DNA of 64,000 nt. It comes from an uncultured Anaerolineales bacterium. GTDB lineage: Bacteria; Chloroflexota; Anaerolineae; B4-G1. The stretch is taken from NCBI GenBank assembly GCA_964530325.1, contig CAZHAX010000003.1, positions 11,409 to 75,408 of the forward strand. Direction: 5' to 3'. Numbering within the stretch: position 1 is the first letter of the stretch; each line of letters opens with the position of its first letter. The notes under the pieces were generated by a model. It did not search any database. It was given only the letters and a program-made list of their open reading frames with translations, and was not told the DNA's origin. A program made the translations under genes and the position numbers. Of the stretch, positions 37,965 through 51,488 are shown piece after piece.

Positions 37965-39329
37965 CTAGAACGTCACGCAGGTGACGTAGCAGGCGACGTT
38001 CTTCTCCGTCGACTCCAGGTTGAATGCCCAGACCGACCAGGTGTTGGCCGTGGTGATCTGGCTGCTGTAGAACCGGGTGACGCCCGCCTGGCCGACGAAC
38101 CCACCGCCGGTCGCCAGTCCGGTCGGGCAGGTGCAGGTGGCGTTGCCGGAGCCGTGTGGGCCCACGGAGCCCCACACCTTCTCCTCGTACGTCGTGCCGC
38201 TGGTGCCGGAAAGGCAGATCGCGTGTGCTGTCAGCGCGTTTACCGAGCTCTCCGTGTTGTTCGCGTACACCCGCCAGCCGTTCCCGGAGGCCCGCGAGCT
38301 GGCGTAGACGTGCTGGCTGCCGTCGTAGTCGATGCCCCATCCGCCGCCGGTGATGATGCTTCCGGCAGGACACCAGGCCACAGCGCTGGCCCAGCCGCCG
38401 GGCTGCACCTCCACGGTTCGGGCCACCGTCGTGACCGAGCCGGAGACGTTCGTGAGGCAGGCTGCCCGGACGATCAGGACCTGATCTGTGGTCGAGTGAT
38501 TCATGGCCGAGACCTTCCAGCCATCTGCGGTCTTCAAGTTGGCGTGGACCACCATGGACCAGTGGGTCAGGTAGCCGCCGCCGACCACCAGGCTGCCCTC
38601 GGGGCAGACGGCAGTTATCGATCCTGAGTAGCCAGGCGCGATCTGAATCCGCCTCTCATCCCAGACGATGCTGGGGAAGAGAGCGGGCACAACCGTCATC
38701 ACTGGCGGCGCCAGCGTCATCAGAGGTAGGGTGGTAGCCGCAGGCGTGGCTGTTGCGGCCGCCGGCGTAGCCGGCGGTGGCTCCGGGCTGGGCACCACGA
38801 TCTGCACCCAGAACGTGGACCCAAACATCTGCGCCTCGGCCGACCTCATCCGCCAGTCGCCCCGATGCGTCCCGTACGTCGTCGGCGCAGCAAGATCAGC
38901 GGTGACGTCCACCGTGGCCCCCGCCGCCGTCTCCGGCACCGGCACGGACGCCGGCCCGCCCATCTGCTCCCCAGACACGAAGACGAGCTCGAAGCCAGGA
39001 CCCCAGTCGCACGTACCCGTGTTCTGGATTCGCCAACCCTTCACGAAAGCCGCCCCGGGCGCCATCTCCGTGTCGTCCGGTATGGTGATGTCGGCCACGT
39101 AGGACGCGTTCAGCGTGCAGTCCCCCGCCTCCACGTCCTCCTCGGCAGTGGGGGTTGCCGCAGCTTCACCCGCCTCTTCGGCAGTCCCGTCCGGCGTGCG
39201 TGTGGCGTTCTCATCCGCCCCGGCGCCGCCTAAGAGCTCCTGGAGAGGCGCGCAAGCCGGCGCTCCCAGGAGCACGACTGCGAGGACGAGCACTACCACC
39301 ACCCGCGGCCCTCTCCTTCCACTCAACAT
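37965..39329 (-). CDS. Secreted NBR1-type FW domain protein with three C-terminal Cys-bracketed GGG/NGW repeats (paralog A; lacks the Ig-like domain)
   Basis: Signal peptide ending 'LLGAPAC'; FW domain 'CTLNASYVADITIPDDTEMAPGAAFVKGWRIQNTGTCDWGPGFELVFVSG...FGSTFWVQIVV'; a PT linker; repeats 'CPEGSLVVGGGY', 'CPAGSIITGGGW...NGWRVYANN', 'CPTGLATGGGF'. Confidence 0.75.
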   Translation of the reverse strand: MLSGRRGPRVVVVLVLAVVLLGAPACAPLQELLGGAGADENATRTPDGTAEEAGEAAATPTAEEDVEAGDCTLNASYVADITIPDDTEMAPGAAFVKGWRIQNTGTCDWGPGFELVFVSGEQMGGPASVPVPETAAGATVDVTADLAAPTTYGTHRGDWRMRSAEAQMFGSTFWVQIVVPSPEPPPATPAAATATPAATTLPLMTLAPPVMTVVPALFPSIVWDERRIQIAPGYSGSITAVCPEGSLVVGGGYLTHWSMVVHANLKTADGWKVSAMNHSTTDQVLIVRAACLTNVSGSVTTVARTVEVQPGGWASAVAWCPAGSIITGGGWGIDYDGSQHVYASSRASGNGWRVYANNTESSVNALTAHAICLSGTSGTTYEEKVWGSVGPHGSGNATCTCPTGLATGGGFVGQAGVTRFYSSQITTANTWSVWAFNLESTEKNVACYVTCVTF

Positions 39330-39496: not shown

Positions 39497-41091
39497 CTAC
39501 GGGAACGACAGGCAGATGGCGTAGGCGTTGGGCGGCTTGTCAGTTCCACTGCTGTTCTGGGCAAACACGTTCCACTCGTTGCCCGTGAACAGCTTGGTAG
39601 AGGTGTTGTAGACGTATGCTAGGGTCCCTCCCGCAAACCCGCCCCCGACGGCCAGGCTGCCCTCCGGGCATGTGGCGATCACGCCCCCGTCTCGTGGCCG
39701 CCGACGCTGCCACCGTTGCCGACCTCCGTGGTGCTACCGCTCGTGCCGGACAGACAAGCCGCGTAGACGGCAAACGTCTTGTCCTCGCCGCCCCCGTTCC
39801 TGGCGCGCGCCCCCCAGCCGTTGCCTGACACACGGCTGCCGTAGACCTGCAGGCTGCCATCGTGGTCGGACGCCCATCCGCCGCCGGTGACGACGCTGCC
39901 GGGCGGGCAGGTGACCTCCGGGGTCCCGTGCCATCCCGCCTCCACCGTCACCGAGTAGTGCGCCTCGGTCACGGATCCGCCTGTGTTCGACAGGCAGACA
40001 GCATAGACGTTCAGCAACTTGCTCACGCCAGCGTTGTTCTTGGCCCAGGCTTGCCAGCCATCGCCGTGCTGGGAGTGGCTGTAGACCAGTACGTCGGGAT
40101 GGGCGGCATACCCACCGCTAACGGGCAGGCTGCTGCCGGGGCATTCCACCGTCGCTTGGCCGATGTCGCCCGAGCCGATCGAGATCTGGGAGTAGATCTG
40201 TTCCACCTGCACCGGGAGGAAGGGCGGTATCATAGGCGTGGTCTGCGGCGGCAGCATGGTCATGATCGGCACGTCCAACGTCGGCGTAGCCTCCGGCGCG
40301 GCCGTCGCCGGGCTGGGCACCACGATCTGCACCCAGAACGTGCTGCCGAAAGGCCGCCCCTCGTCGGATCGCATCTGCCAGTCACCGCGGTGCGTGCCAT
40401 ACGCCGTCGGTGCTTGCAGATCGATCGCTAGATCCACCGTCCCGCCGGCGACCGTCTCGGGCAGCGGGATCGAACAGACGCTGCCCATCTGGACCCCCAG
40501 CACGAAGACGAGCTCGAAGCCCGGGCCCCAGTCACACGTGCCGCTGTTCTGGATCCTCCAACTCTTGGTGAACGATGCCCCAGGCGCCATCTCCGTGTCG
40601 TCCGGGATCATGATGTCGGCCACGAACGAGGCGTTCAGAGTGCAGCCTTCCGCCTCCACATCCTCCACCGGCGTCGGGCTGGGCTGGGCCACGCCCTTCC
40701 TCACCCTCAGCGTGATCGTCGCCTATTCCGATGCCTGCCCCTCCGCATCGTAGGCAATCACCGAAACCCGCACCTCGCCCTCTTCCTCGGGCACCCACGA
40801 CTGAACCAGGCGAAAGGTCGTCAGATTCTCTTCCGGAGGCTCCGCCTCCCGCACCACCTCCCCATCGATCAACAACTCCACCCGCGCGATCCCCACGTCC
40901 GACGTCGATACCGACGCGATCTCCACCGTTCGTCCCACTCCCACACGGGCCCCGGTGGCCGGCCTGCTGATCTCCACGCTCGGCCCGCCGTTGGCCAGCA
41001 TGTCCTCCAACGGGGCACAGGCCAACACAGTCAGGAGGAGAAGGAGCACCAGCGATGAGACAGCTCGCACCCCGCTCTTGTGGCGCAGCAT
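39497..41091 (-). pseudogene. Disrupted paralog B of the Big_7-FW-repeat family (in-frame TAG plus C-terminal frameshift)
   Basis: Three ORF pieces (40723..41091, 39679..40704, 39497..39682) are colinear with paralogs C and D. TAG at 40723-40725 replaces a residue in 'ASE-A-ATIT'; there is a frame change near 39680; the upstream -35 GTAAC is lost. Confidence 0.7.
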
Positions 41092-41424: not shown

Positions 41425-43053
41425 CTACGGGAACGACAGGCAGACCGCATAGGCGTTGAGACCCTTGCTGGATCCAGAGGAATTCCTGGCATATACGATC
41501 CATTGGTTATCCGAACCCGGCTTGGGCGACGTGTTGTAGACACGCAGGTCGGGCCCTCCCGCGAAACCGCCACCGGCCGCCAGGCCGTCCCCGCTGCAGG
41601 TGGCGACCACATAACCCGTGCCACTGCCGGCAATCGAGCCGCCGCTGCCCTCCTGGGTGGTCGTGCCGGTCGTGCCGGAGAGACAGAGGGCATAGGCCTT
41701 GACATACTTGGTGGACCCTGTGTTGTTCTTCGCATACACCTGCCAGCCGTTGCTGGACTTGGAGCTGTTGTAGACGTGCAGGCTCCCGTCCGCGTACGAG
41801 GCCCATCCTCCGCCGGTGACGACGCTGCCCGCCGGGCAGGCTGCGATCGGGTGGCCGACGCCTCCCGCTGCCACCGCCACCTGCTCGGATACCTGGGTCA
41901 CGCTGCCCGCCGTATTCGAGAGGCACACGGCGTACACGCTCAGAGTCTTGCTCGCGCCGGCGTTGTTCTGGCCGTATACCCGCCAGCCGTTGCCCACCTT
42001 GAAGTGAGTGTACACCAGGACGTCAGGATGGACGGCGTACCCACCACTGACGACCACACTGCCCGAGGGACAGCTCGCGGTCTCCCAGCCGATATCGCCG
42101 GGGTCGATGGAGACCTGCTCTAGCACAGTCGCGACGGACGGTTGGAACAAAGGAAGCGCAGTGATGATGATCGGACCCAGCGTGAAGATCGGCATGAACC
42201 AGGTTGGTGTCGGCCAGGGCGTGTCGGTCGGCAGCGGCGTCGGCGTCACCGTCGGCGTCGCCGTCGGCGGCGCAGGGACGATGATCTGCACTGAGAGAAC
42301 GGCACCGAAGATCTGCCCCTGGTCCGAGCGCAGCCTCCACTCGGCGGAGTGCGTGCCGTAGGTCATCGGCGCCTCCAGCTGCACGCTCAAGTCGACAGTA
42401 TCGCCCGCTGCCGTGGGCGGCACAGGAACGGACGCCGGCCCGCCCATCTGATCGCCGCTGGCGAACACCAGGGTGAACCCGGCACCCCAGTCACAGGTTC
42501 CGCTGTTCTGCACTCGCCAGCCCTTGATGAACGGTGCGCCCGGAGCCACCTCCGTGTCCGCCGGTATCGAGACGTCGGTCACGAAAGCCGCGTTCACCGT
42601 GCAGGCGGCGGGGGCCTCCGTCGGGGTTGGGGTCGGCGTGGCCGCCTCAGCGGCACCGGCTCCGACATTCAGGATCACGGTCGCCTCATCCGACGCCCGC
42701 CCCTCGCTGTCGTAGGCCACCACCGAGATCTCCACTTCACCCTCCGCGTCCGGGAGCCAGGTCTGCACCAGGCGGAACGTGCTCGGATTCCCGGAGGGTG
42801 GTGTGCTCTCCTGCACCACATCGCCGTCCACGAGCAGCTCCACACGTGCTATGCCGGCGTCGGCGGTTGAAGTAGAGGCGATCTCCACCGCTTCCCCGAT
42901 CTCGGCTGTCGCCCCGCTGGTCGGGCTCGTTATCTCTACGCTCGGCCCCAGGTCGACGACCAGCCCCTCCAGGGGCGAGCAGGCGAGTGCCGTGACGAGC
43001 AGCACCAGCACCAGTAGCGAGAAAGCTCTTGTCCTACTCTTGCTGCGCAACAT
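41425..43053 (-). CDS. Secreted Big_7 Ig-like + NBR1-type FW domain protein with three C-terminal GGG/NGW repeats (paralog C)
   Basis: Start at the Met preceded by an AGGAGGTG RBS. Signal peptide 'LLVLVLLVTALAC'; Big_7-like 'VEITSPTSGA...VELLVDGDVV...VVAYDSEG'; FW domain; a PT linker; three repeats ending '...AYAVCLSFP'. Confidence 0.8.
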   Translation of the reverse strand: MLRSKSRTRAFSLLVLVLLVTALACSPLEGLVVDLGPSVEITSPTSGATAEIGEAVEIASTSTADAGIARVELLVDGDVVQESTPPSGNPSTFRLVQTWLPDAEGEVEISVVAYDSEGRASDEATVILNVGAGAAEAATPTPTPTEAPAACTVNAAFVTDVSIPADTEVAPGAPFIKGWRVQNSGTCDWGAGFTLVFASGDQMGGPASVPVPPTAAGDTVDLSVQLEAPMTYGTHSAEWRLRSDQGQIFGAVLSVQIIVPAPPTATPTVTPTPLPTDTPWPTPTWFMPIFTLGPIIITALPLFQPSVATVLEQVSIDPGDIGWETASCPSGSVVVSGGYAVHPDVLVYTHFKVGNGWRVYGQNNAGASKTLSVYAVCLSNTAGSVTQVSEQVAVAAGGVGHPIAACPAGSVVTGGGWASYADGSLHVYNSSKSSNGWQVYAKNNTGSTKYVKAYALCLSGTTGTTTQEGSGGSIAGSGTGYVVATCSGDGLAAGGGFAGGPDLRVYNTSPKPGSDNQWIVYARNSSGSSKGLNAYAVCLSFP

Positions 43054-43094
43054 ACCACACCTCCTGTTGTGACCAAGGTTCACTCATGCTCATG

Positions 43095-43120: not shown

Positions 43121-43236
43121 ATTGCCCGGCGGAGCCGCCCGGCATCGACGCTGCCGCCGTTATGTCCACACGGTATCCTACGGTTCCAGTATACGACCTG
43201 CGCGCCTCGCTGGCAAGCGAGACCTGGCCGTGGACG

Positions 43237-43308: not shown

Positions 43309-44898
43309 TCAGAAGGTCAGGCAGTCCGCGTAGCAGTAGAAGTTCCTGGAAGAGGTGTCCGTATTCCGACCCCAGTTGCTCCATTGGCCGGAGACGGACA
43401 GGTCCGGGGACGTGATGTAGAGCTTGGCGTACTGGAACGGCCCGGCGAAGCCCCCGCTCACGTTCAGCCCGCTGGAGCAGGAGCACTCGACCTCACCCAC
43501 ACTGCCGGCTCCCAGGCTGATCGAGTTCGTCACCTCGGAAACGGAGCCGGTCGTGCCCTCCAGACAGATCGCCCGCGCTACCACGCCCGAGTTGCCGCTG
43601 CCGGTGTTGAAGGCATAGACCTCCCAGCCGTTGCCGAACTTGGAGCTGTTGTACACGTGCATGTCGCCGGTGGGCAAGACCGCCCAGCCGCCGCCCGTGA
43701 CGACGCTCCCGGCGGGGCACTCGGCCACCGCCTTGCCCCAGTTGCCCGGCGTCACTGAGACGCTGGAGCTCGTGACCATCGATGTAGTACCTGAGACATT
43801 CCTCAGGCAGACCGCGTGCACGGTCATCGCCAGATCGGACCCGCCGTGATTCCAGCCCGCGCCGCGCCAGCCATCGCCGGACTTGTAGTGGCTGTAGACC
43901 TCGACGTTCCAGTGCACGTCGTAGCCGCCGCCGACGACGAGCCCTCCGCCGGGGCATGCGGCGGTGGTCGCCGCCCAGGTGCCGGCCGGCACCGTCACCG
44001 TCGCGCTCACGTGCTGAGTGTACGGCAGGAAGACCATGAATGTGGGGGCGATCATTGTTATGAGCGGCATAGACCAGGTCGGGGTCGGCGTCGGCGTATC
44101 AGCCGGCGTCGGCGTCACCGTAGGCGGCGCGGGAACCACTATCTGGACCCAGAACGTGGAGCCGAACATCTGCGCCTCATCAGACCGGGCTCGCCAGTTG
44201 CCCCGATGCGTGCCGTAGGTCGTAGGAGCTTCCAGCTCAACGCTGACGTCCACGGTGTTTCCGGCGGGGGTTGGTGAAATCGCGACCGAAGCCGGCCCGC
44301 CCATCTGATCCCCGCTGACGAAGACCAGCTCGAAGCCGGGACCCCAATCGCAGGTCCCGCTGTTCTGTATCCTCCATCCCTTCACGAAGGAGGCTCCGGG
44401 CGCAATCTCGGTGTCGTCCGGGATCGTGATATCGGCCACGTAAGAGGCATTCAGCGTGCAGCCCCCGATCTCGACATCCTCCGCCGGCGTCGGCGTCACG
44501 CCGGCCGCGGCTTCGCCGACGAAGATCGTGATCGTTGCCGCCTCGGACGCCCGCCCTTCGACGTCGTAGGCCACCACAGACACCGTCACCTCGCCTTCCG
44601 CCAAGGGGACCCACGCCTGCAGCAGGCGGAAGGTCGGCGGGTTGCCCGCCGGCGGTTCGTCCCGGCGGACCACAGCGCCGTCGACCAGGAGCTCGACCCG
44701 GGCCAGGCCGGCATCTGCGCTGGAGGTGGAAGCGATCTCCAGCGTTTCCCCAACCTGCACCGTGAGCCCACTCGCGGGCCCGGTGATCTCTGTGCTGACC
44801 GTATCCTCTCCCAGAAGCGGCCCGCAGGCCAGAGACGCCAGTAGAACAACCAGCGACGCGCCCCTCGACGCCCGCAACCTTCTCGTCTCACTCGGCAT
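43309..44898 (-). CDS. Secreted Big_7 Ig-like + NBR1-type FW domain protein with three C-terminal GGG/NGW repeats (paralog D)
   Basis: Signal peptide 'LVVLLASLAC'; Big_7-like domain; an FW domain nearly identical to paralog A; a PT linker; repeats 'CPGGGLVVGGGY', 'CPAGSVVTGGGW...NGWEVYAFN', 'CSCSSGLNVSGGF'; 'GAGEVGRY' RBS GAGGAGG. Confidence 0.8.
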   Translation of the reverse strand: MPSETRRLRASRGASLVVLLASLACGPLLGEDTVSTEITGPASGLTVQVGETLEIASTSSADAGLARVELLVDGAVVRRDEPPAGNPPTFRLLQAWVPLAEGEVTVSVVAYDVEGRASEAATITIFVGEAAAGVTPTPAEDVEIGGCTLNASYVADITIPDDTEIAPGASFVKGWRIQNSGTCDWGPGFELVFVSGDQMGGPASVAISPTPAGNTVDVSVELEAPTTYGTHRGNWRARSDEAQMFGSTFWVQIVVPAPPTVTPTPADTPTPTPTWSMPLITMIAPTFMVFLPYTQHVSATVTVPAGTWAATTAACPGGGLVVGGGYDVHWNVEVYSHYKSGDGWRGAGWNHGGSDLAMTVHAVCLRNVSGTTSMVTSSSVSVTPGNWGKAVAECPAGSVVTGGGWAVLPTGDMHVYNSSKFGNGWEVYAFNTGSGNSGVVARAICLEGTTGSVSEVTNSISLGAGSVGEVECSCSSGLNVSGGFAGPFQYAKLYITSPDLSVSGQWSNWGRNTDTSSRNFYCYADCLTF

Positions 44899-45025: not shown

Positions 45026-45553
45026 CTAGGTGCCGGGCGACTGCACGCCAACGATCAAGCTACTCCACTCGAGTGCTCTCCACGCCCCGCTCTCATCCCT
45101 CCGCACGCTGACCGGCCTGGCACTCGCCGCCCCTGAGCATGAGGCGAAGACCTTGTACGTGCCAGAGCCCGCGTCCCCGCTGTACTTGTTCGCCGAGAAC
45201 TCCAGCTCGTACGGCAGATCGGGCAGCTCATAGCCATTCTCCGGAGCGGTGCACTTGAAATACGACCTGGGTATGTGCCCTTTGCCCACGATCTGCGATA
45301 GCGCCAGGCGCAGATCGGAGCTGCGTAGCTGCAGCCCATCGTATCCCTGTGCGCCCTCCTCCAGGCGGCTGGAGTCGACGGCCGCGGCCATACATTGCCG
45401 GCCCAGCTCCTCATTCTCCGCCAGCAGCAGCAGGGCAACAACCATGGCCGCCGCGCCGCCCTGCGGCTCTCCGGCAATCCCGTCCCGCATCTTGACGAAT
45501 TCCTCGATCGAACCGGGCATACTGCCGATCCGCACAGGTTTCAGCGTCGTCAT
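45026..45553 (-). CDS. Hypothetical protein
   Basis: 175-aa ORF with an AGGAGGTG RBS. No recognisable motif. Confidence 0.45.
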   Translation of the reverse strand: MTTLKPVRIGSMPGSIEEFVKMRDGIAGEPQGGAAAMVVALLLLAENEELGRQCMAAAVDSSRLEEGAQGYDGLQLRSSDLRLALSQIVGKGHIPRSYFKCTAPENGYELPDLPYELEFSANKYSGDAGSGTYKVFASCSGAASARPVSVRRDESGAWRALEWSSLIVGVQSPGT

Positions 45554-45647
45554 CGCCTGGCACCTCCTGCCTGTTCTGAGCTATTGCCGCGCTGCTCCGC
45601 CACTCCCTGTGCCGAAGGGACACGCCGCAGAGAGACTTTGACGGAGG

Positions 45648-46403
45648 CTAGAAGTCGTATTCCGTGAGGTCCTGGGCTAGCTCCACCGGGCCACCGAACG
45701 CCTCCCCGGCCTCGGTCAGCCAGCGGTCGTACTGCTCTTCGTCCGGCTGATAGTGGATCAGCACCAGCCTACCAACCCCAGCTCGGCGTGCGAGCTCGCC
45801 CGCCTGCGCCGCGCTCGTGTGGCCTGCGGTGCTACTCGCCGCCTCGTGGATTAGGATGTCGGATCCCTCAGCCAGAGCAACGACGGCATCGCACGGTGCC
45901 GTGTCGCTGGAATAGGCTATCGAGCCGCCGCTGCGCTTGTTCTCGAAGCGTAGCCCGACTGTTGGCACGAGGTGCTCCACCGGGCCGGAGGTGATTCGCA
46001 GCCCCTCCGTCTCCACAGCCAGCGCACCTATGTCTTCAGTCAGAGTCTTGTACTCAATCGGAAAGAGCCCCGGCCAGTCCTGCCAGCGGAAGAGGTCCAT
46101 CATGGAATTGAACCTCTCGATTGCGTCAGCAAGGCCGTAGACCTCGAGGGGCTTCTTCCTACCCAGGAGCCAGGCATCCATCAGCAGAATTGGGGCGCCG
46201 CAGACGTGGTCCGGGTGGAAGTGCGTGATGAAGAGCCCTCGCAGATTGCCGAGAGCCAATCCCGCACCGTTGAACCTTACTATCGGATTGTCGGCGCAGT
46301 CGATGAGGAATAGGTCTTGACCCTCCTCCACTGCCAGGTAGGTGTTGGCATGGGCCTCGTCCGGCACCGCCGCCGCGCTTCCCAGAACAATCAGCCTTGT
46401 CAC
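45648..46403 (-). CDS. MBL-fold metallo-hydrolase
   Basis: 'HFHPDH' (HxHxDH) zinc-binding motif. Confidence 0.75.
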   Translation of the reverse strand: MTRLIVLGSAAAVPDEAHANTYLAVEEGQDLFLIDCADNPIVRFNGAGLALGNLRGLFITHFHPDHVCGAPILLMDAWLLGRKKPLEVYGLADAIERFNSMMDLFRWQDWPGLFPIEYKTLTEDIGALAVETEGLRITSGPVEHLVPTVGLRFENKRSGGSIAYSSDTAPCDAVVALAEGSDILIHEAASSTAGHTSAAQAGELARRAGVGRLVLIHYQPDEEQYDRWLTEAGEAFGGPVELAQDLTEYDF

Positions 46404-46410
46404 GCCCGCC

Positions 46411-47916
46411 CTACCCCCCGAAGGCCCGAATCACCAGGGCCGGTGTCAGATGCGCCTCGACTGCAGCGGCGGCCGCCAGCATAGGCAGCACCAGGAACAC
46501 GAAAACCTTCAAGAAGTCGGCCAGCGCCCGCAGCCACGCCTCGCCGACAGCCATGCCCCGAGGAGGTGACATGAAGACAGCTCCCAAGCGGACTGCCATG
46601 GCGGTCGATAGGACCACGGCCGGTATCTCCAGGGCGCCGTGCGGTAGCACACCGGCGGCGAAGAACAGCCACGGGTCGTACCCCATGTTGGCGGACTGGG
46701 CCACAAGGAAGGCCACGACGGCGAGAGGAGCCATCGTCAGCGCTATGGCCAGAGAGCCGAACGAGAACACTGCCAACAGAGCCGCCCCCACCAACACCCG
46801 CAGGTTGTGAGAGAGAATGCCTCCGGTGGTTAACGACAGGACTCCCAGGACACGACTGTCCGAGAAGGAGTCGGCGGAGACGACCTCGTCTCCCAGGAGC
46901 TCGGCCGGCAGGGGGTAGTCGGCGGCGAAGCTCAAGCCAACTAGCACAGCCAGAAGGATTGCCACTACCACGGTGGCCACGGCCAGCCGGGATTCGCGAA
47001 GGACCGCTGGCAGGTGGCGCCGGTAGAGACCGCCCAAGGCCCCCATCCAACGCAGGGCAGCGGGCAGCCGATCCGGGTCTCTGCCGAAGAACCAGGGCTC
47101 CCACTGTAGGTGACGCCAGAACGTGCGCCAGATGTAGCCCAGGTTCAGCTCATCGATCTCGCGACCCAACAGCTCCTCGCGATTGAAGATGTAGATGCCC
47201 ATGCGGACAAGTATCACGTCCGCGACGACAAGGAAGGCCACGATCCACCACAGCGCGTCGTAGTTGCCCCAGAACATCACCAGGGCCTCGCCCTGCGCCA
47301 GGAGCGCCATGGGGATGATGATGAAGCTGGCCAGCAGGTTAGCGGCGCGCACGCTGGTCGTCTGGCTGGACACCACCACCGCACCGCTGACCATAACCAC
47401 GCACTCGGCCGTGGTCAGGACGATGATGAGAACGAACAGCTCCAGCGGGGGCGACCAACCCTCGAAGTAGTATAGGCCAGTCAGGTAGACCCCCACGCCG
47501 AGGTAGGCGGCCAGCAGCGGCGGCACCATCGCTCCCACTGTCTTGCCCACGTAGAGCTCGGCGTCGGACAGAATCGTAGCCAGAAGAGGTTCGAGGCTCT
47601 TTCGCTCCCGCTCGCCGGCGAACGTCTCCAGTGCGATGACCAGCGAGAAGGAGATGGGGAAGAAGCCGACGATCATGAGCAGGAATGGCAGCATCCTCTC
47701 GCTGATGATCGGGGCTCCTCCGTAGCTGGCTACCCATTCAATGGCGCTGTTGGCCACGAACGTCATTATCAACGGGAAGAGTAGAGTGAGCAGCACGATC
47801 GGGATGGCGATGCGCCAATCACGAAGTGAGTCGCGCACCTCGCGGCCGACGAGAGCAAGCACCAGACGCAGCGACTCTGCGATCCCCCCTTCTCGTTGCA
47901 GGGCCTTGGTCGTCAT
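46411..47916 (-). CDS. ABC-2 family permease fused to a SpoIIM/DUF95-like membrane domain
   Basis: N-terminal six-TM ABC-2 permease. The C-terminal half carries 'VLPHGALEIPA', typical of stage II sporulation protein M family domains. Confidence 0.6.
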   Translation of the reverse strand: MTTKALQREGGIAESLRLVLALVGREVRDSLRDWRIAIPIVLLTLLFPLIMTFVANSAIEWVASYGGAPIISERMLPFLLMIVGFFPISFSLVIALETFAGERERKSLEPLLATILSDAELYVGKTVGAMVPPLLAAYLGVGVYLTGLYYFEGWSPPLELFVLIIVLTTAECVVMVSGAVVVSSQTTSVRAANLLASFIIIPMALLAQGEALVMFWGNYDALWWIVAFLVVADVILVRMGIYIFNREELLGREIDELNLGYIWRTFWRHLQWEPWFFGRDPDRLPAALRWMGALGGLYRRHLPAVLRESRLAVATVVVAILLAVLVGLSFAADYPLPAELLGDEVVSADSFSDSRVLGVLSLTTGGILSHNLRVLVGAALLAVFSFGSLAIALTMAPLAVVAFLVAQSANMGYDPWLFFAAGVLPHGALEIPAVVLSTAMAVRLGAVFMSPPRGMAVGEAWLRALADFLKVFVFLVLPMLAAAAAVEAHLTPALVIRAFGG

Positions 47917-47919
47917 CGG

Positions 47920-48831
47920 TTAGGCCTCCACCACACGCAGAAAGACATCTTCCAGGCTGCGTTCTACCTCGCTCAGGGTGACGACCCCTACTCCTTCTCT
48001 CGAGAGCGTCTGAAGCACAGCTGGGTTCGTGTGCGAGGGATTGGGGGTCGAATAAAGTAGCCAATCCGCACCCCGGCCCTCGATCGTCACCAGGTCGGAT
48101 ACCAGATCCACCGCACCGTCTACCGGGCCGGCGAGTCTCAGCTCCATCAGGGGTGGCCCTAGCAGCTGGTCCTTCAGCTCGCCAGAGGTGCCCAGAGCGA
48201 TGATCTCGCCCCTCCGTATGATGGCGATCCGATCCGCGATCGCCTCAGCCTCCGCCAGGTTGTGAGTGCAGATGACCGTCGCCCGGCTCTGGCTGCGCAG
48301 GCTGACGATGGCATCGCGCACGAGCTTGGCGCTGTGGGGATCCATTGCCGAGGTCGGCTCGTCGAGCAGGAGGACCGGCGGATCGTGCAGCATAGCGCGC
48401 ACCAGGGCGATCTTCTGTCTCGCGCCTTTGGAGTACGTGGACAGCCGCCGGTCATAGAGATCAGACATGCCGAAGTAGTCGACGAGCTCCCTGGCCCGCC
48501 GCACTCTCTCGTCGGGATCGATCTGCATCATGCGGCCGAAGAAGTCCAGGTACTCGGCGCCTCGCATGCGCAGATAGAGGCCGGGGTGCTCGGTGAGGAG
48601 CCCGATCCTTCGCCTCACCTCCCGAGGACTCTTGGTCACCCAGTGGCCAGCTACGAGAGCGTCACCGGCCGTGGGGCGGAGGATAGCCCCGAGCATACGA
48701 ACGGTCGTCGTCTTGCCCGCACCGTTCGGACCTAGCAACGCCAGGATCTCGCCCGCGCGTACCGAAAACGTCACCCGGTTGACCGCGGTGAACTCGCCAA
48801 ACCGCTTCGTCAGTCCCTGCAGTTCAATCAT
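47920..48831 (-). CDS. ABC transporter ATP-binding protein
   Basis: Walker A 'GPNGAGKTT', signature 'YSKGARQK', Walker B 'LLLDEPTSAMD', plus a C-terminal extension of about 70 aa. Confidence 0.85.
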   Translation of the reverse strand: MIELQGLTKRFGEFTAVNRVTFSVRAGEILALLGPNGAGKTTTVRMLGAILRPTAGDALVAGHWVTKSPREVRRRIGLLTEHPGLYLRMRGAEYLDFFGRMMQIDPDERVRRARELVDYFGMSDLYDRRLSTYSKGARQKIALVRAMLHDPPVLLLDEPTSAMDPHSAKLVRDAIVSLRSQSRATVICTHNLAEAEAIADRIAIIRRGEIIALGTSGELKDQLLGPPLMELRLAGPVDGAVDLVSDLVTIEGRGADWLLYSTPNPSHTNPAVLQTLSREGVGVVTLSEVERSLEDVFLRVVEA

Positions 48832-51404: not shown

Positions 51405-51414
51405 AGCCGCGTCC

Positions 51415-51488
51415 GGGGCGTAGCGCAGTCAGGTAGCGCGCAGCAATCGGGATGCTGAGGCCCGGGGTTCAAGTCCCCGCGCCCCGAC
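51415..51488 (+). tRNA. tRNA-Pro (anticodon CGG)
   Basis: Manual cloverleaf: acceptor CGGGGCG/CGCCCCG, D-arm GCGC-AGTCAGGTA-GCGC, anticodon stem CAGCA/TGCTG with loop AUCGGGA, and T-arm CGGGG-TTCAAGT-CCCCG. No CCA is encoded. Confidence 0.85.

What the first reader, a model, noticed from the sequence alone, without database searches (positions are those of the whole stretch)
41425..42250. Unassigned 75-aa Cys-bracketed repeat module (C-x-G-S-x-V-x-GGG-[WYF] ... NGW-x-V-[YA]-A-x-N ... AYA-x-CL) in three tandem copies per protein
In all four paralogs the C-terminal half has three repeats. Each opens with 'CP[AS]GS[VL]V.GGG[WYF]' and closes with '[AV]YA[VL]CL'; in between sit a conserved 'VY.S' and an 'NGW.VYA.N' core. 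The two conserved Cys per repeat could form an intrarepeat disulfide. I cannot place this module in a known family from sequence. It could be a new beta-rich carbohydrate- or protein-binding module. The terminal repeat is conserved down to the last residues ('YAVCLSFP' in B and C, 'YADCLTF' in D, 'CYVTCVTF' in A).
Basis: seen in the sequence. Interest (0 to 1): 0.55.

Follow-up and report, generated by a model that had tools for sequence, protein, structure and literature searches.

The report
Bacterial PCSK9-like triple-repeat beta-prism head

Summary
Observation confirmed. There are twelve repeat copies, three in each of four tandem minus-strand paralogs. Per-repeat E-values against a family profile are 1e-13 to 1e-31, and there are no other copies in the window.

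The structural unit is a contiguous six-strand module of about 78-80 aa that starts about 21 residues before the first Cys. Paralog B carries an in-frame TAG and a frameshift.

Pfam, NCBIfam and PDB sequence searches give nothing significant. The only Pfam trace is a faint precomputed PF27479 (YjdH) hit.

AlphaFold2 folds the three repeats into one domain (pLDDT 98, pTM 0.92). Foldseek matches the PCSK9 C-terminal domain (E 1e-8, TM 0.68/0.72) and the APCbeta domain. Two profiles put TgPLP1 APCbeta as the top PDB sequence hit (E about 0.01).

The family is large: 11,265 clusters at 50% identity. Proteins carry three or six repeats, or a single repeat behind a collagen-like stalk. One actinomycete subtilase has PCSK9's domain order.

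Best reading: a disulfide-stapled, pseudo-threefold extracellular binding head. The fold is well supported; the ligand is unknown.

Verdict: a new bacterial variant of a known fold, of moderate interest.

The parts
42979..43053 (-). Gene C signal peptide with a lipobox (…LVTALA-C; the Cys is residue 35 counted from the GTG at 43083)
   Evidence: Read from the translation. An 'AC' near the N-terminus is conserved in the consensus of 93 family members. The public gene call starts at the ATG at 43053. Lipidation itself is inferred.
42775..42945 (-). Gene C Big_7 bacterial Ig-like domain
   Evidence: Pfam PF17957, E 7.7e-8, residues 47-103.
42277..42567 (-). Gene C FW / N_BRCA1_IG (Nbr1-like) Ig-like domain
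   Evidence: Pfam PF16158, E 2.2e-24, residues 173-269. Found in 47 of 93 family members scanned.
42136..42276 (-). Gene C Pro/Thr-rich linker, ending in a hydrophobic Pro-rich stretch (WFMPIFTLGPIIITALPLFQPS)
   Evidence: Read from the translation. No family match. Its role is unexplained.
41905..42135 (-). Gene C repeat 1 (residues 317-393), a six-strand subdomain
   Evidence: HMM E 9e-29. AF2 strands E2-10, 15-21, 26-35, 39-47, 50-57, 63-73. Coordinates.
41665..41904 (-). Gene C repeat 2 (residues 394-473)
   Evidence: HMM E 2.7e-31. AF2 strands 78-153. Coordinates.
41428..41664 (-). Gene C repeat 3 (residues 474-552). The stop codon is at 41425-41427.
   Evidence: HMM E 1.7e-23. AF2 strands 158-234. 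Coordinates.
43312..44010 (-). Paralog D three-repeat domain (R1 43789-44010, R2 43546-43788, R3 43312-43545). R3 has four Cys.
   Evidence: The same gene is called on public contig SRR8556428_8400.
39500..40206 (-). Paralog B three-repeat domain (R1 39976-40206, R2 39736-39975, R3 39500-39735), with a frameshift near 39682-39690. B also has an in-frame TAG at 40723-40725, upstream of the FW domain.
37968..38660 (-). Paralog A three-repeat domain (R1 38439-38660, R2 38196-38438, R3 37968-38195). A lacks Big_7, and R3 has four Cys.

Best explanation
**What it is.** The region encodes the C-terminal domain of a secreted protein that is probably lipid-anchored. Its three repeats are three six-stranded beta-sandwich subdomains, not independent modules. 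They pack around a pseudo-threefold axis into one compact 'double-layered beta-prism'. This is the fold of the PCSK9 C-terminal V/CHRD domain and of the APCbeta domain of apicomplexan perforin-like proteins, and the fold built by the resistin homotrimer.

**How each repeat is built.** The conserved strands b3 (x-V-V-T-G-G-G-W), b5 (G-W-x-V-x-A-x-N) and b6 (x-A-Y-A-x-C-L) would form the inner sheet facing the core. The variable b1-b2 hairpin would form the outer layer. The one conserved Cys pair (end of b2 to b6) would staple the outer layer to the inner one.

**How it most likely works.** The domain sits at the far end of a chain: lipid anchor, Big_7 Ig domain, FW/Nbr1-like Ig domain, Pro/Thr linker, prism. 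I infer that it is the distal binding head of a cell-surface protein. It would recognise a macromolecular ligand (protein or glycan) through the variable polar loops b3-b4, b4-b5 and b5-b6. The tandem paralogs would supply different specificities.

**Shown versus inferred.**
- Shown: the repeats, their conservation, the predicted fold and its structural matches, and the requirement for three copies.
- Inferred: the assignment of strands to layers, the disulfides, lipidation, surface display and the binding function.
- Unknown: the ligand.

**Confidence.** About 0.85 for the fold assignment and about 0.5 for the binding-head function. The overall figure of 0.6 combines the two.
For: **Fold.**
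- AF2 on a 62-sequence alignment gives pLDDT 98.0 and pTM 0.92, with 18 strands, six per repeat, in one domain.
- In Foldseek against the PDB, 31 of the 33 hits with E <= 0.001 are PCSK9 chains. Their E-values start at 1e-8, all with probability 1.00, and TM is 0.68/0.72 against the isolated C-terminal domain 7anq_A.
- The other two hits are the TgPLP1 and PvPLP1 APCbeta domains, 5ouo and 7pln, at E 5.5e-7 to 5e-6.

**Sequence links.**
- Two independent profiles, one of the three-repeat domain and one of the single repeat, rank TgPLP1 APCbeta as the best repeat-region match among 177,635 PDB sequences (E 0.011 and 0.013; outright top hit for the single-repeat profile).
- Those alignments fall in register on the C-P-x-G-x-x-V motif of each APCbeta repeat.

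**Layer assignment.** The conservation pattern (b3, b5 and b6 conserved; b1 and b2 variable) matches what is published for APCbeta. There the inner four strands are more conserved than the outer two, and disulfides link the layers (PMC5943054, PMC6294395).

**Three copies are the functional unit.**
- 175 of 212 family proteins have three repeats and 3 have six.
- Relatives with a single repeat carry it directly behind a collagen triple-helix stalk, which is an obligate trimer. Pfam Collagen scores are E 5e-59 for L066, 5e-16 for L073 and 2e-7 for L074.

**Modular extracellular head.** The domain is C-terminal to the following:
- FW: 47 of 93 proteins.
- Big_7: 29 of 93 proteins.
- Also CARDB, M14 carboxypeptidase, glutaminase, and one or more of TIG, PASTA and cadherin.
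- A proteinase-K-type S8 peptidase with an I9 prodomain, P0177. This is PCSK9's domain order, and the P0177 model's top PDB hits are full-length PCSK9 at E 1e-30.

**Paralog arrays recur.** Tandem arrays of 3-6 paralogs occur in other Anaerolineales genomes.
Against: **Weak sequence support.**
- Profile-profile comparison with PCSK9 C-terminal domains is not significant (hhalign E 0.17).
- At the single-module level there is only a 19-column in-register match (P 0.003, probability 11%).
- Pfam PCSK9_C1-3 and Resistin models do not hit.
- The APCbeta sequence link is marginal (E about 0.01).

**Limits of the model.**
- The fold rests on prediction. I had no access to model coordinates.
- Disulfide geometry, loop exposure and the assignment of strands to inner or outer layers are therefore inferred from strand order and conservation.

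**No handle on function.**
- There are no functional data.
- There is no conserved gene neighbourhood.
- No ligand-binding motif was identified.
- Paralog A's signal peptide lacks a canonical lipobox.
Confidence: 0.6

Rival explanations
1. The prism is a carbohydrate-binding (lectin-like) module. It would bind polysaccharide or cell-wall glycan through its Ser/Thr/Asn/Gly-rich loops.
For: - The loops are polar and rich in N, S, T and G.
- The domain is appended to secreted enzymes such as an M14 carboxypeptidase and an S8 peptidase, as binding modules often are.
- Many beta-prisms in other families are lectins (general knowledge).
Against: - No lectin or CBM appears among the significant Foldseek or sequence matches.
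- One weak Beta-prism_lec Pfam hit in 64 repeats (E 0.096) is at noise level.
- The characterised relatives of this fold bind proteins (PCSK9 CHRD and resistin, PMC9113161) or lipids (APCbeta, PMC6294395).
- The 93 scanned members were not seen fused to glycoside hydrolases.
Confidence: 0.25
2. The prism is a membrane-binding domain that works like APCbeta, docking onto a target lipid bilayer through an inserted loop.
For: - APCbeta is the best PDB sequence match for the repeat region and a Foldseek hit.
- APCbeta binds membranes through a Trp-tipped hydrophobic loop (PMC6294395, PMC5943054).
Against: - No long hydrophobic or aromatic loop is present. The longest loops are KPGSDN, SYADGS and NAGAS.
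- There is no MACPF or other pore-forming partner domain in the window proteins or in the 93 relatives scanned.
- The proteins already carry a lipoprotein-type anchor.
- Global structural similarity to APCbeta is low (TM 0.38) compared with PCSK9.
Confidence: 0.1
3. The prism has no ligand of its own. It would be a stable, protease-resistant C-terminal cap or cell-envelope retention domain that positions or protects the N-terminal domains.
For: - It is always C-terminal and is attached to unrelated N-terminal modules.
- Its core is highly conserved and disulfide-stapled.
Against: - Proteins made of little more than a signal peptide plus the prism are common, for example P0073-P0079.
- Collagen-stalk forms place the domain at the tip of a stalk.
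- Tandem paralogs differ mainly in the loops and the outer hairpin. This fits diversifying recognition better than a passive cap.
Confidence: 0.12
4. The similarity to PCSK9 and APCbeta is convergent or a prediction artefact, and the repeat is an unrelated new fold family.
For: - HH-type comparisons with PCSK9 are not significant.
- No curated family matches.
- AF2 was trained on PCSK9 structures.
Against: - pLDDT is 98 in all five models.
- A second, independent prediction gives the same 18-strand domain. It used a distant actinomycete member with only three sequences covering that region.
- The requirement for three copies is shown independently by copy-number statistics and by the collagen-stalk single-repeat forms.
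- APCbeta is recovered by sequence alone.
Confidence: 0.08

Closest known systems
PCSK9 C-terminal V-domain / Cys-His-rich domain (modules M1-M3; Pfam PCSK9_C1, C2, C3)
   Same: - Three tandem six-stranded beta-sandwich modules of about 80 aa are arranged with pseudo-threefold symmetry into one domain.
- It is the best global structural match: TM 0.68/0.72 and E about 1e-8.
- Disulfides link the two sheets of each module.
- The motif C-x2-G-x3-[TV]-G-[GC] is shared: ACEEGWTLTGC in PCSK9 versus ACPAGSVVTGG here.
- A relative, P0177 from Kibdelosporangium, has the same I9 prodomain, proteinase-K-type S8 and prism order as PCSK9.
   Different: - There is one disulfide per repeat here, against three in PCSK9 (PMC9113161).
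- The domain is not His-rich.
- There is no significant sequence or profile similarity.
- The window proteins have no protease domain.
- The proteins are bacterial lipoproteins rather than a vertebrate secreted protein.
APCbeta domain of apicomplexan perforin-like proteins (TgPLP1 5OUO/6D7A; PvPLP1 7PLN)
   Same: - Three direct repeats of about 80 aa form a double-layered beta-prism.
- The inner strands are more conserved than the outer hairpin, and disulfides link the layers (PMC5943054, PMC6294395).
- It is the only PDB family whose match to the repeats themselves stands out by sequence profile (E 0.011-0.02), and the match is in register on all three repeats.
   Different: - APCbeta has four conserved Cys per repeat. 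Here there are two, except in repeat 3 of paralogs A and D.
- APCbeta follows a MACPF pore-forming domain and inserts a Trp-tipped hydrophobic loop into membranes. No such loop or partner domain is present here.
- The global superposition is poor (TM 0.38).
- APCbeta was described as apicomplexan-specific.
Resistin / RELM head domain (1RFX, 1RH7)
   Same: - A small disulfide-rich beta-sandwich forms a threefold head as a homotrimer held by an N-terminal coiled coil. It is the recognised structural relative of the PCSK9 modules (PMC9113161).
- The single-repeat relatives found here, on collagen-like or coiled-coil-like stalks, repeat that design.
- The motif SCPEGTAVLSC is in the same place.
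   Different: - Resistin has five disulfides and a shorter head.
- It has no Foldseek hit in the top 50 and no Pfam Resistin match.
- The window proteins fuse three copies in one chain.
Pfam PF27479 'YjdH' (named after an uncharacterised Bacillus subtilis protein listed among spore-coat proteins)
   Same: It is the only Pfam family with any precomputed hit on the repeat region of this family: 25 of the 79 homologues, and protein C itself.
   Different: - The hit on protein C and on P0028 is flagged 'faint', meaning no single hit reaches E 0.001.
- The model is newer than the local Pfam copy and could not be run here.
- The function of YjdH is unknown (PMC8005191, PMC12029333).

Membership tests
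Double-layered beta-prism fold class (PCSK9 V-domain plus APCbeta, as defined in PMC6294395) | Three tandem subdomains of about 80 aa, six strands each, packed with internal pseudo-threefold symmetry into one globular domain | tested here: met
   - The AF2 model has pLDDT 98 and pTM 0.92, with 18 strands, six per repeat.
- Foldseek gives probability 1.00 to PCSK9 C-terminal domains (TM 0.68/0.72) and to APCbeta.
- An independent model of P0177 gives the same 18-strand domain.
Double-layered beta-prism fold class (PCSK9 V-domain plus APCbeta) | [quoted passage not shown] | tested here: inconclusive
   - Two invariant Cys per repeat lie at the end of b2 (variable, inferred outer hairpin) and in b6 (conserved, inferred inner strand).
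PCSK9 CHRD (Pfam PCSK9_C1/C2/C3) | Sequence match to the Pfam PCSK9_C models or to a PCSK9 C-terminal-domain profile | tested here: not met
   - There is no PCSK9_C hit at E <= 1 to 10.
- hhalign of the family profile against a PCSK9 C-terminal-domain alignment gives E 0.17.
- Module-level hhalign gives only 19 columns, P 0.003, probability 11%.
PCSK9 CHRD | Six Cys forming three disulfides per module, with a Cys/His-rich composition (PMC9113161) | tested here: not met
   There are two Cys per repeat, or four in A-R3 and D-R3. No His enrichment is evident in the repeat sequences.
PCSK9 CHRD | Location C-terminal to an I9 prodomain and a proteinase-K-type S8 catalytic domain | tested here: not met
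   - The window proteins have Big_7 and FW domains instead.
- The feature is met only by distant relatives P0177, P0225 and P0226.
APCbeta (apicomplexan perforin-like proteins) | Detectable sequence similarity of the repeats | tested here: inconclusive
   TgPLP1 is the best repeat-region PDB match with two different profiles, and the alignments are in register on each repeat, but E is only 0.011-0.02.
APCbeta | Four conserved Cys (two disulfides) per repeat | tested here: not met
   There are two conserved Cys per repeat. Only A-R3 and D-R3 have four.
APCbeta | Attachment to a MACPF domain, and a protruding hydrophobic Trp-tipped membrane-insertion loop | tested here: not met
   - No MACPF domain is present in the window proteins or in the 93 relatives scanned.
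- The loops are short and polar.
- Loop exposure could not be checked on coordinates.
Resistin/RELM | Pfam Resistin match, and an N-terminal coiled coil with a single head that trimerises | tested here: not met
   - The only trace is an E 6.2 Resistin hit on one homologue. None was found in 64 repeats.
- The window proteins have three fused repeats.
- A stalk-plus-single-head design does occur in distant relatives.
Pfam PF27479 (YjdH) | Score above the family's gathering threshold | not testable with these tools
   - The model is absent from the local Pfam copy.
- Precomputed hits exist on the repeat region of 25 of the 79 homologues.
- Those hits are marked 'faint' on protein C and on P0028.
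   None appears among the Foldseek hits with E <= 0.001. Pfam gives only noise-level hits.

The most novel reading that the evidence does not exclude
This large bacterial family would be the prokaryotic stock from which three eukaryotic modules descend: resistin, the PCSK9 CHRD and the apicomplexan APCbeta domain. All three designs seen in eukaryotes already exist in bacteria:
- a homotrimer on a stalk, like resistin;
- three fused modules behind an I9-S8 protease, like PCSK9;
- three fused repeats used as a targeting head, like APCbeta.

On this reading, PCSK9's three-domain architecture could have been inherited from, or exchanged with, an actinomycete-type proteinase-K-like peptidase rather than assembled in animals.
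Probability: 0.2. Interest if true: 0.7.

Novelty: new variant of a known kind. Interest (0 to 1): 0.45.

Why it matters
**Current view.** The double-layered beta-prism has been treated as a rarity. [quoted passage not shown]

**What this changes, if the assignment holds.**
- The fold is common in bacteria: at least 11,265 clusters at 50% identity, mainly in Chloroflexota and Actinomycetota.
- It needs only one disulfide per subdomain.
- It occurs in both fused and homotrimeric forms.

**What follows.**
- It gives an evolutionary context for the PCSK9 C-terminal domain, which is medically important but poorly understood, and for resistin.
- It gives a simple bacterial scaffold for studying how this prism binds partners.
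- It assigns a fold to a large block of 'hypothetical' surface proteins of Anaerolineae.

It does not reveal a new mechanism, and the ligand remains unknown.

Tried and rejected
- **Direct family searches were negative.** Pfam-A and NCBIfam scans of the four proteins and of 64 single repeats gave no significant family on the repeats. There were only noise-level hits to CC, PBCV1_P7 and Resistin.
- **Plain sequence search of the PDB** gave only chance hits to 3-keto-disaccharide hydrolases (E about 0.1-0.2).
- **Foldseek against viral structures (BFVD)** gave nothing interpretable.
- **hhalign against PCSK9 was not significant.**
  - The family profile against a single PCSK9 sequence: E 0.14.
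  - Against a 9-sequence PCSK9 C-terminal-domain alignment: E 0.17.
  - Against a 20-module PCSK9 profile: a marginal motif match only.
  - I therefore do not claim sequence-level membership in the PCSK9 family.
- **Gene-neighbourhood comparison found no conserved partner genes.** I compared the window, L001, L077, L078, L079 and L080, so no operon-based functional inference was possible.
- **One alignment was discarded.** A mixed alignment (A6), meant to model the S8-prism protein, smeared the prism-only sequences across the protease. I replaced it with A7.
- **The promoter and terminator scan** of the paralog array was at chance level, apart from one 10/12 promoter-like site upstream of gene C.
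- **Literature searches** for PF27479, for bacterial relatives of PCSK9, resistin or APCbeta, and for YjdH found no description of this family. The library is limited to open-access papers and preprints.
- **Rejected readings:** propeller blade, beta-trefoil, lectin beta-prism and independently folding Cys-knot-like repeats.
Full report
**1. Observation**

Region 41425-42250 is the 3' end of a minus-strand gene, C. It runs 41425..43053 from the ATG used in a public gene call on Logan contig SRR8556428_8400, or to 43083 from an upstream GTG. It is one of four tandem minus-strand paralogs:
- A: 37965..39329
- B: 39497..41091
- C
- D: 43309..44898

A single-repeat HMM, seeded on C and rebuilt on family members, finds exactly 12 copies in the six-frame translation of the window. 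There are three per paralog and none elsewhere, with per-repeat E-values of 1e-13 to 1e-31.

In a 62-sequence alignment the two Cys, the GG and the Trp of each repeat are invariant or nearly so.

- The closing peptide of B is YAICLSFP.
- B has an in-frame TAG (40723-40725) and a 1-nt frameshift in a G-run just before repeat 3.
- Repeat 3 of A and of D has four Cys.
- The repeats are contiguous structural units of 74-81 aa (about 78-80 in most copies) with no linkers between them.

**2. Protein anatomy**

Protein C is built as follows:
- a signal peptide with a lipobox-like …TALA-C;
- a Big_7 Ig domain (E 8e-8);
- an FW/N_BRCA1_IG domain (E 2e-24);
- a Pro/Thr-rich linker ending in a hydrophobic Pro-rich stretch;
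- the three repeats, which run to the last residue.

D and B have the same architecture. A lacks Big_7. The paralogs are 39-58% identical over the repeat domain.

**3. Sequence placement**

The local Pfam-A copy, NCBIfam and a phmmer search of all PDB sequences give nothing significant on the repeats.

The protein database's precomputed annotation, made with a newer Pfam, lists PF27479 on 25 of the 79 homologues. The tool names this family 'YjdH' and marks the hit on protein C and on P0028 as 'faint'. B. subtilis YjdH is uncharacterised and appears only in spore-coat and spore-proteome lists (PMC8005191, PMC12029333).

**4. Fold**

AlphaFold2 was run on residues 317-552 of C with 62 homologues.
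- Mean pLDDT is 98.0 and pTM is 0.92.
- The model is one domain of 18 strands, six per repeat.

Foldseek was then run against the PDB.
- 31 of the 33 hits with E <= 0.001 are PCSK9 chains. Their E-values start at 1e-8, all with probability 1.00.
- TM is 0.68/0.72 against the isolated PCSK9 C-terminal domain 7anq_A.
- The other two are the APCbeta domains of T. gondii and P. vivax perforin-like protein 1 (5ouo, 7pln; E 5.5e-7 to 5e-6).

These two domains are the members of the 'double-layered beta-prism' subgroup defined by Guerra et al. Its features are three direct repeats, pseudo-threefold symmetry, and disulfides tying the inner and outer layers together (PMC6294395; also PMC5943054). PCSK9's three modules are in turn the recognised structural counterpart of the resistin homotrimer (PMC9113161).

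**5. Sequence-level links**

- A profile of the three-repeat domain ranks TgPLP1 APCbeta second overall among 177,635 PDB sequences and first for the repeat region (E 0.011; the one stronger hit falls on the FW-domain flank of some alignment members). A separate single-repeat profile of 64 diverse repeats ranks it first (E 0.013). The alignments fall on the C-P-x-G-x-x-V motif of each of the three APCbeta repeats.
- Against PCSK9 the evidence is weak:
  - hhalign of the family against a PCSK9 C-terminal-domain alignment gives E 0.17.
  - A 612-repeat profile against a 20-module PCSK9 profile gives only a 19-column in-register match (P 0.003, probability 11%).
- A shared motif is visible in verified sequences:
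  - ACPAGSVVTGG (here)
  - ACEEGWTLTGC and HCHQQGHVLTGC (PCSK9)
  - KCPGGQVVILG and SCPDETVVVGG (APCbeta)
  - SCPEGTAVLSC (mouse resistin)

I take common ancestry as likely but not proven. Membership in the PCSK9_C or Resistin sequence families is not met.

**6. Internal logic of the repeat**

Family-wide column entropy shows b3, b5 and b6 to be the conserved strands. b1, b2 and b4, and the loops b3-b4, b4-b5 (in repeat 3) and b5-b6, are variable. This matches the published APCbeta pattern of a conserved inner sheet and a variable outer hairpin.

The pattern places the conserved Cys pair (end of b2, middle of b6) as an outer-to-inner staple. I could not measure S-S geometry because model coordinates are not exposed.

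**7. Three copies are the functional unit**

- Among 212 family proteins in hand, 175 have three repeats and 3 have six. Most of the rest are fragments.
- In genome loci from Streptomyces and a Chloroflexi MAG, single-repeat proteins carry the repeat immediately after long collagen G-X-Y runs. Pfam Collagen scores are E 5e-59, 5e-16 and 2e-7.
- A Sulfuricurvum protein has a segment that looks coiled-coil-like by eye before its single repeat (not tested).
- Micromonospora has secreted single-repeat proteins of about 120 aa.

An obligate-trimer stalk bearing one repeat is the homotrimeric equivalent of the fused prism. It mirrors the relation between resistin and PCSK9.

**8. Distribution and partners**

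- An exhaustive profile search finds 11,265 clusters at 50% identity with E <= 1e-3, and 3,283 with E <= 1e-10.
- In species-representative genomes the close relatives are almost all Anaerolineales or Chloroflexota. More distant ones are in Micromonospora, Streptomyces, Kitasatospora, Ktedonobacterales, Acidobacteriota, Myxococcales and Burkholderiales.
- Tandem arrays of 3-6 paralogs recur in other Anaerolineales.
- The prism is C-terminal to many secreted modules:
  - FW in 47 of 93 proteins;
  - Big_7 in 29 of 93;
  - CARDB, M14 carboxypeptidase and glutaminase;
  - single cases of TIG, PASTA and cadherin.
- P0177 (Kibdelosporangium sp., annotated as an S8 family peptidase) is I9 prodomain + proteinase-K-type S8 + prism. 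P0225 and P0226 (Phytohabitans) share this architecture.
  - Its prodomain and catalytic part match PCSK9 residues 73-436 at E 5e-44.
  - Its AF2 model (pLDDT 74; the prism part about 80-90) has full-length PCSK9 as its top PDB hits (E 1e-30 over about 650 columns).
  - TM is only 0.42-0.46, because the predicted domain orientations differ.
- This architecture is rare: three cases among the best matches. An independent fusion is therefore as plausible as ancestry.

**9. Function**

No conserved gene neighbourhood exists, so the inference rests on anatomy:
- the domain sits at the distal end of an anchor-stalk-linker chain, or at the tip of a collagen stalk;
- it is a free-standing secreted protein in many species;
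- it is attached to diverse secreted enzymes;
- the paralogs have diversified outside the conserved core.

The characterised relatives use this prism to bind partners. The PCSK9 CHRD binds MHC-I, CAP1 and annexin A2, and resistin binds CAP1 (PMC9113161). APCbeta binds membranes (PMC6294395).

I therefore commit to an extracellular binding head. Because the loops are short and polar, with no hydrophobic protrusion, I rank a protein or glycan ligand above membrane insertion. The ligand is unknown.

**10. Verdict**

- The 'unassignable new module' interpretation is only partly right. The module is a bacterial, single-disulfide variant of a known but rare fold, and it belongs to a very large uncharacterised family.
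- In the literature I could search, I found no description of bacterial relatives of the PCSK9, APCbeta or resistin prism. That search is limited to open-access text, and current Pfam, ECOD or TED may already group them.
- Interest is moderate.

Noticed in passing
window 39497-41091 (paralog B): TAG at 40723-40725; frameshift near 39682-39690: Paralog B carries two lesions. One is an in-frame stop between Big_7 and the FW domain. The other is a 1-nt deletion in the run ACGGGGGCG, just before repeat 3. B is either a pseudogene or the product of assembly errors; two independent lesions favour a pseudogene.
   Followed up: partly
window 37968-38195 (A repeat 3) and 43312-43545 (D repeat 3): The third repeats of A and D have an extra Cys pair (C-x-C at the start and C-x-x-x-C at the end). 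This suggests a second disulfide, as in APCbeta repeats. B and C lack it.
   Followed up: no
window about 42136-42200 (C residues about 296-316), and the equivalent positions in A, B and D: A hydrophobic, Pro-rich stretch (WFMPIFTLGPIIITALPLFQPS in C) lies between the Pro/Thr linker and the prism. It is similar in character in the paralogs and homologues. It was not included in the model, and its role is unexplained.
   Followed up: no
loci L066, L068, L074 (Streptomyces), L073 (Chloroflexi MAG), L075 (Sulfuricurvum), L060/L061/L070 (Micromonospora): Some relatives have a single repeat. It follows collagen G-X-Y repeats (Pfam Collagen up to E 5e-59) or a segment that looks coiled-coil-like by eye, or makes up a secreted protein of about 120 aa. 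These are homotrimeric, resistin-like versions of the prism.
   Followed up: partly
P0177 (Kibdelosporangium sp. MJ126-NF4, CEL21411.1), P0225, P0226 (Phytohabitans houttuyneae): These actinomycete proteinase-K-type subtilases have an I9 prodomain and a C-terminal three-repeat prism, the same domain order as human PCSK9. The top PDB Foldseek hits of the P0177 model are full-length PCSK9 (E 1e-30).
   Followed up: partly
loci L036, L042, L037, L038, L051, L011 (Anaerolineales/Chloroflexia MAGs): Tandem arrays of 3 to 6 three-repeat paralogs recur in other genomes, so the four-gene array in the window is typical of the family.
   Followed up: partly
three-repeat domain of the family (positions N57, N123, N137, N201 of the 236-aa construct): N-x-S/T sequons are enriched (mean 5.3 per domain against 3.4 in shuffles) and sit at conserved columns. 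This could be a structural motif or glycosylation sites. It was not resolved.
   Followed up: no
window 45026-48831, minus strand: Upstream of paralog D lie four genes: a DUF6935 protein (45026..45553); an MBL-fold protein that also hits the Anti-Pycsar Apyc1 family (45648..46403); an ABC-2/SpoIIM-type permease (46411..47916); and an ABC ATPase (47920..48831). The order is the same on public contig SRR8556428_8400. No link to the paralog array was found.
   Followed up: no
window 43188-43216, minus strand: A sigma-70-like promoter match (TTGCCA-17-TATACT, 10 of 12) lies about 135 nt upstream of the gene C ATG. The scan as a whole was at chance level.
   Followed up: no
window 51414-51487, plus strand: A single tRNA gene is the only Rfam match at gathering threshold in the window.
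   Followed up: no
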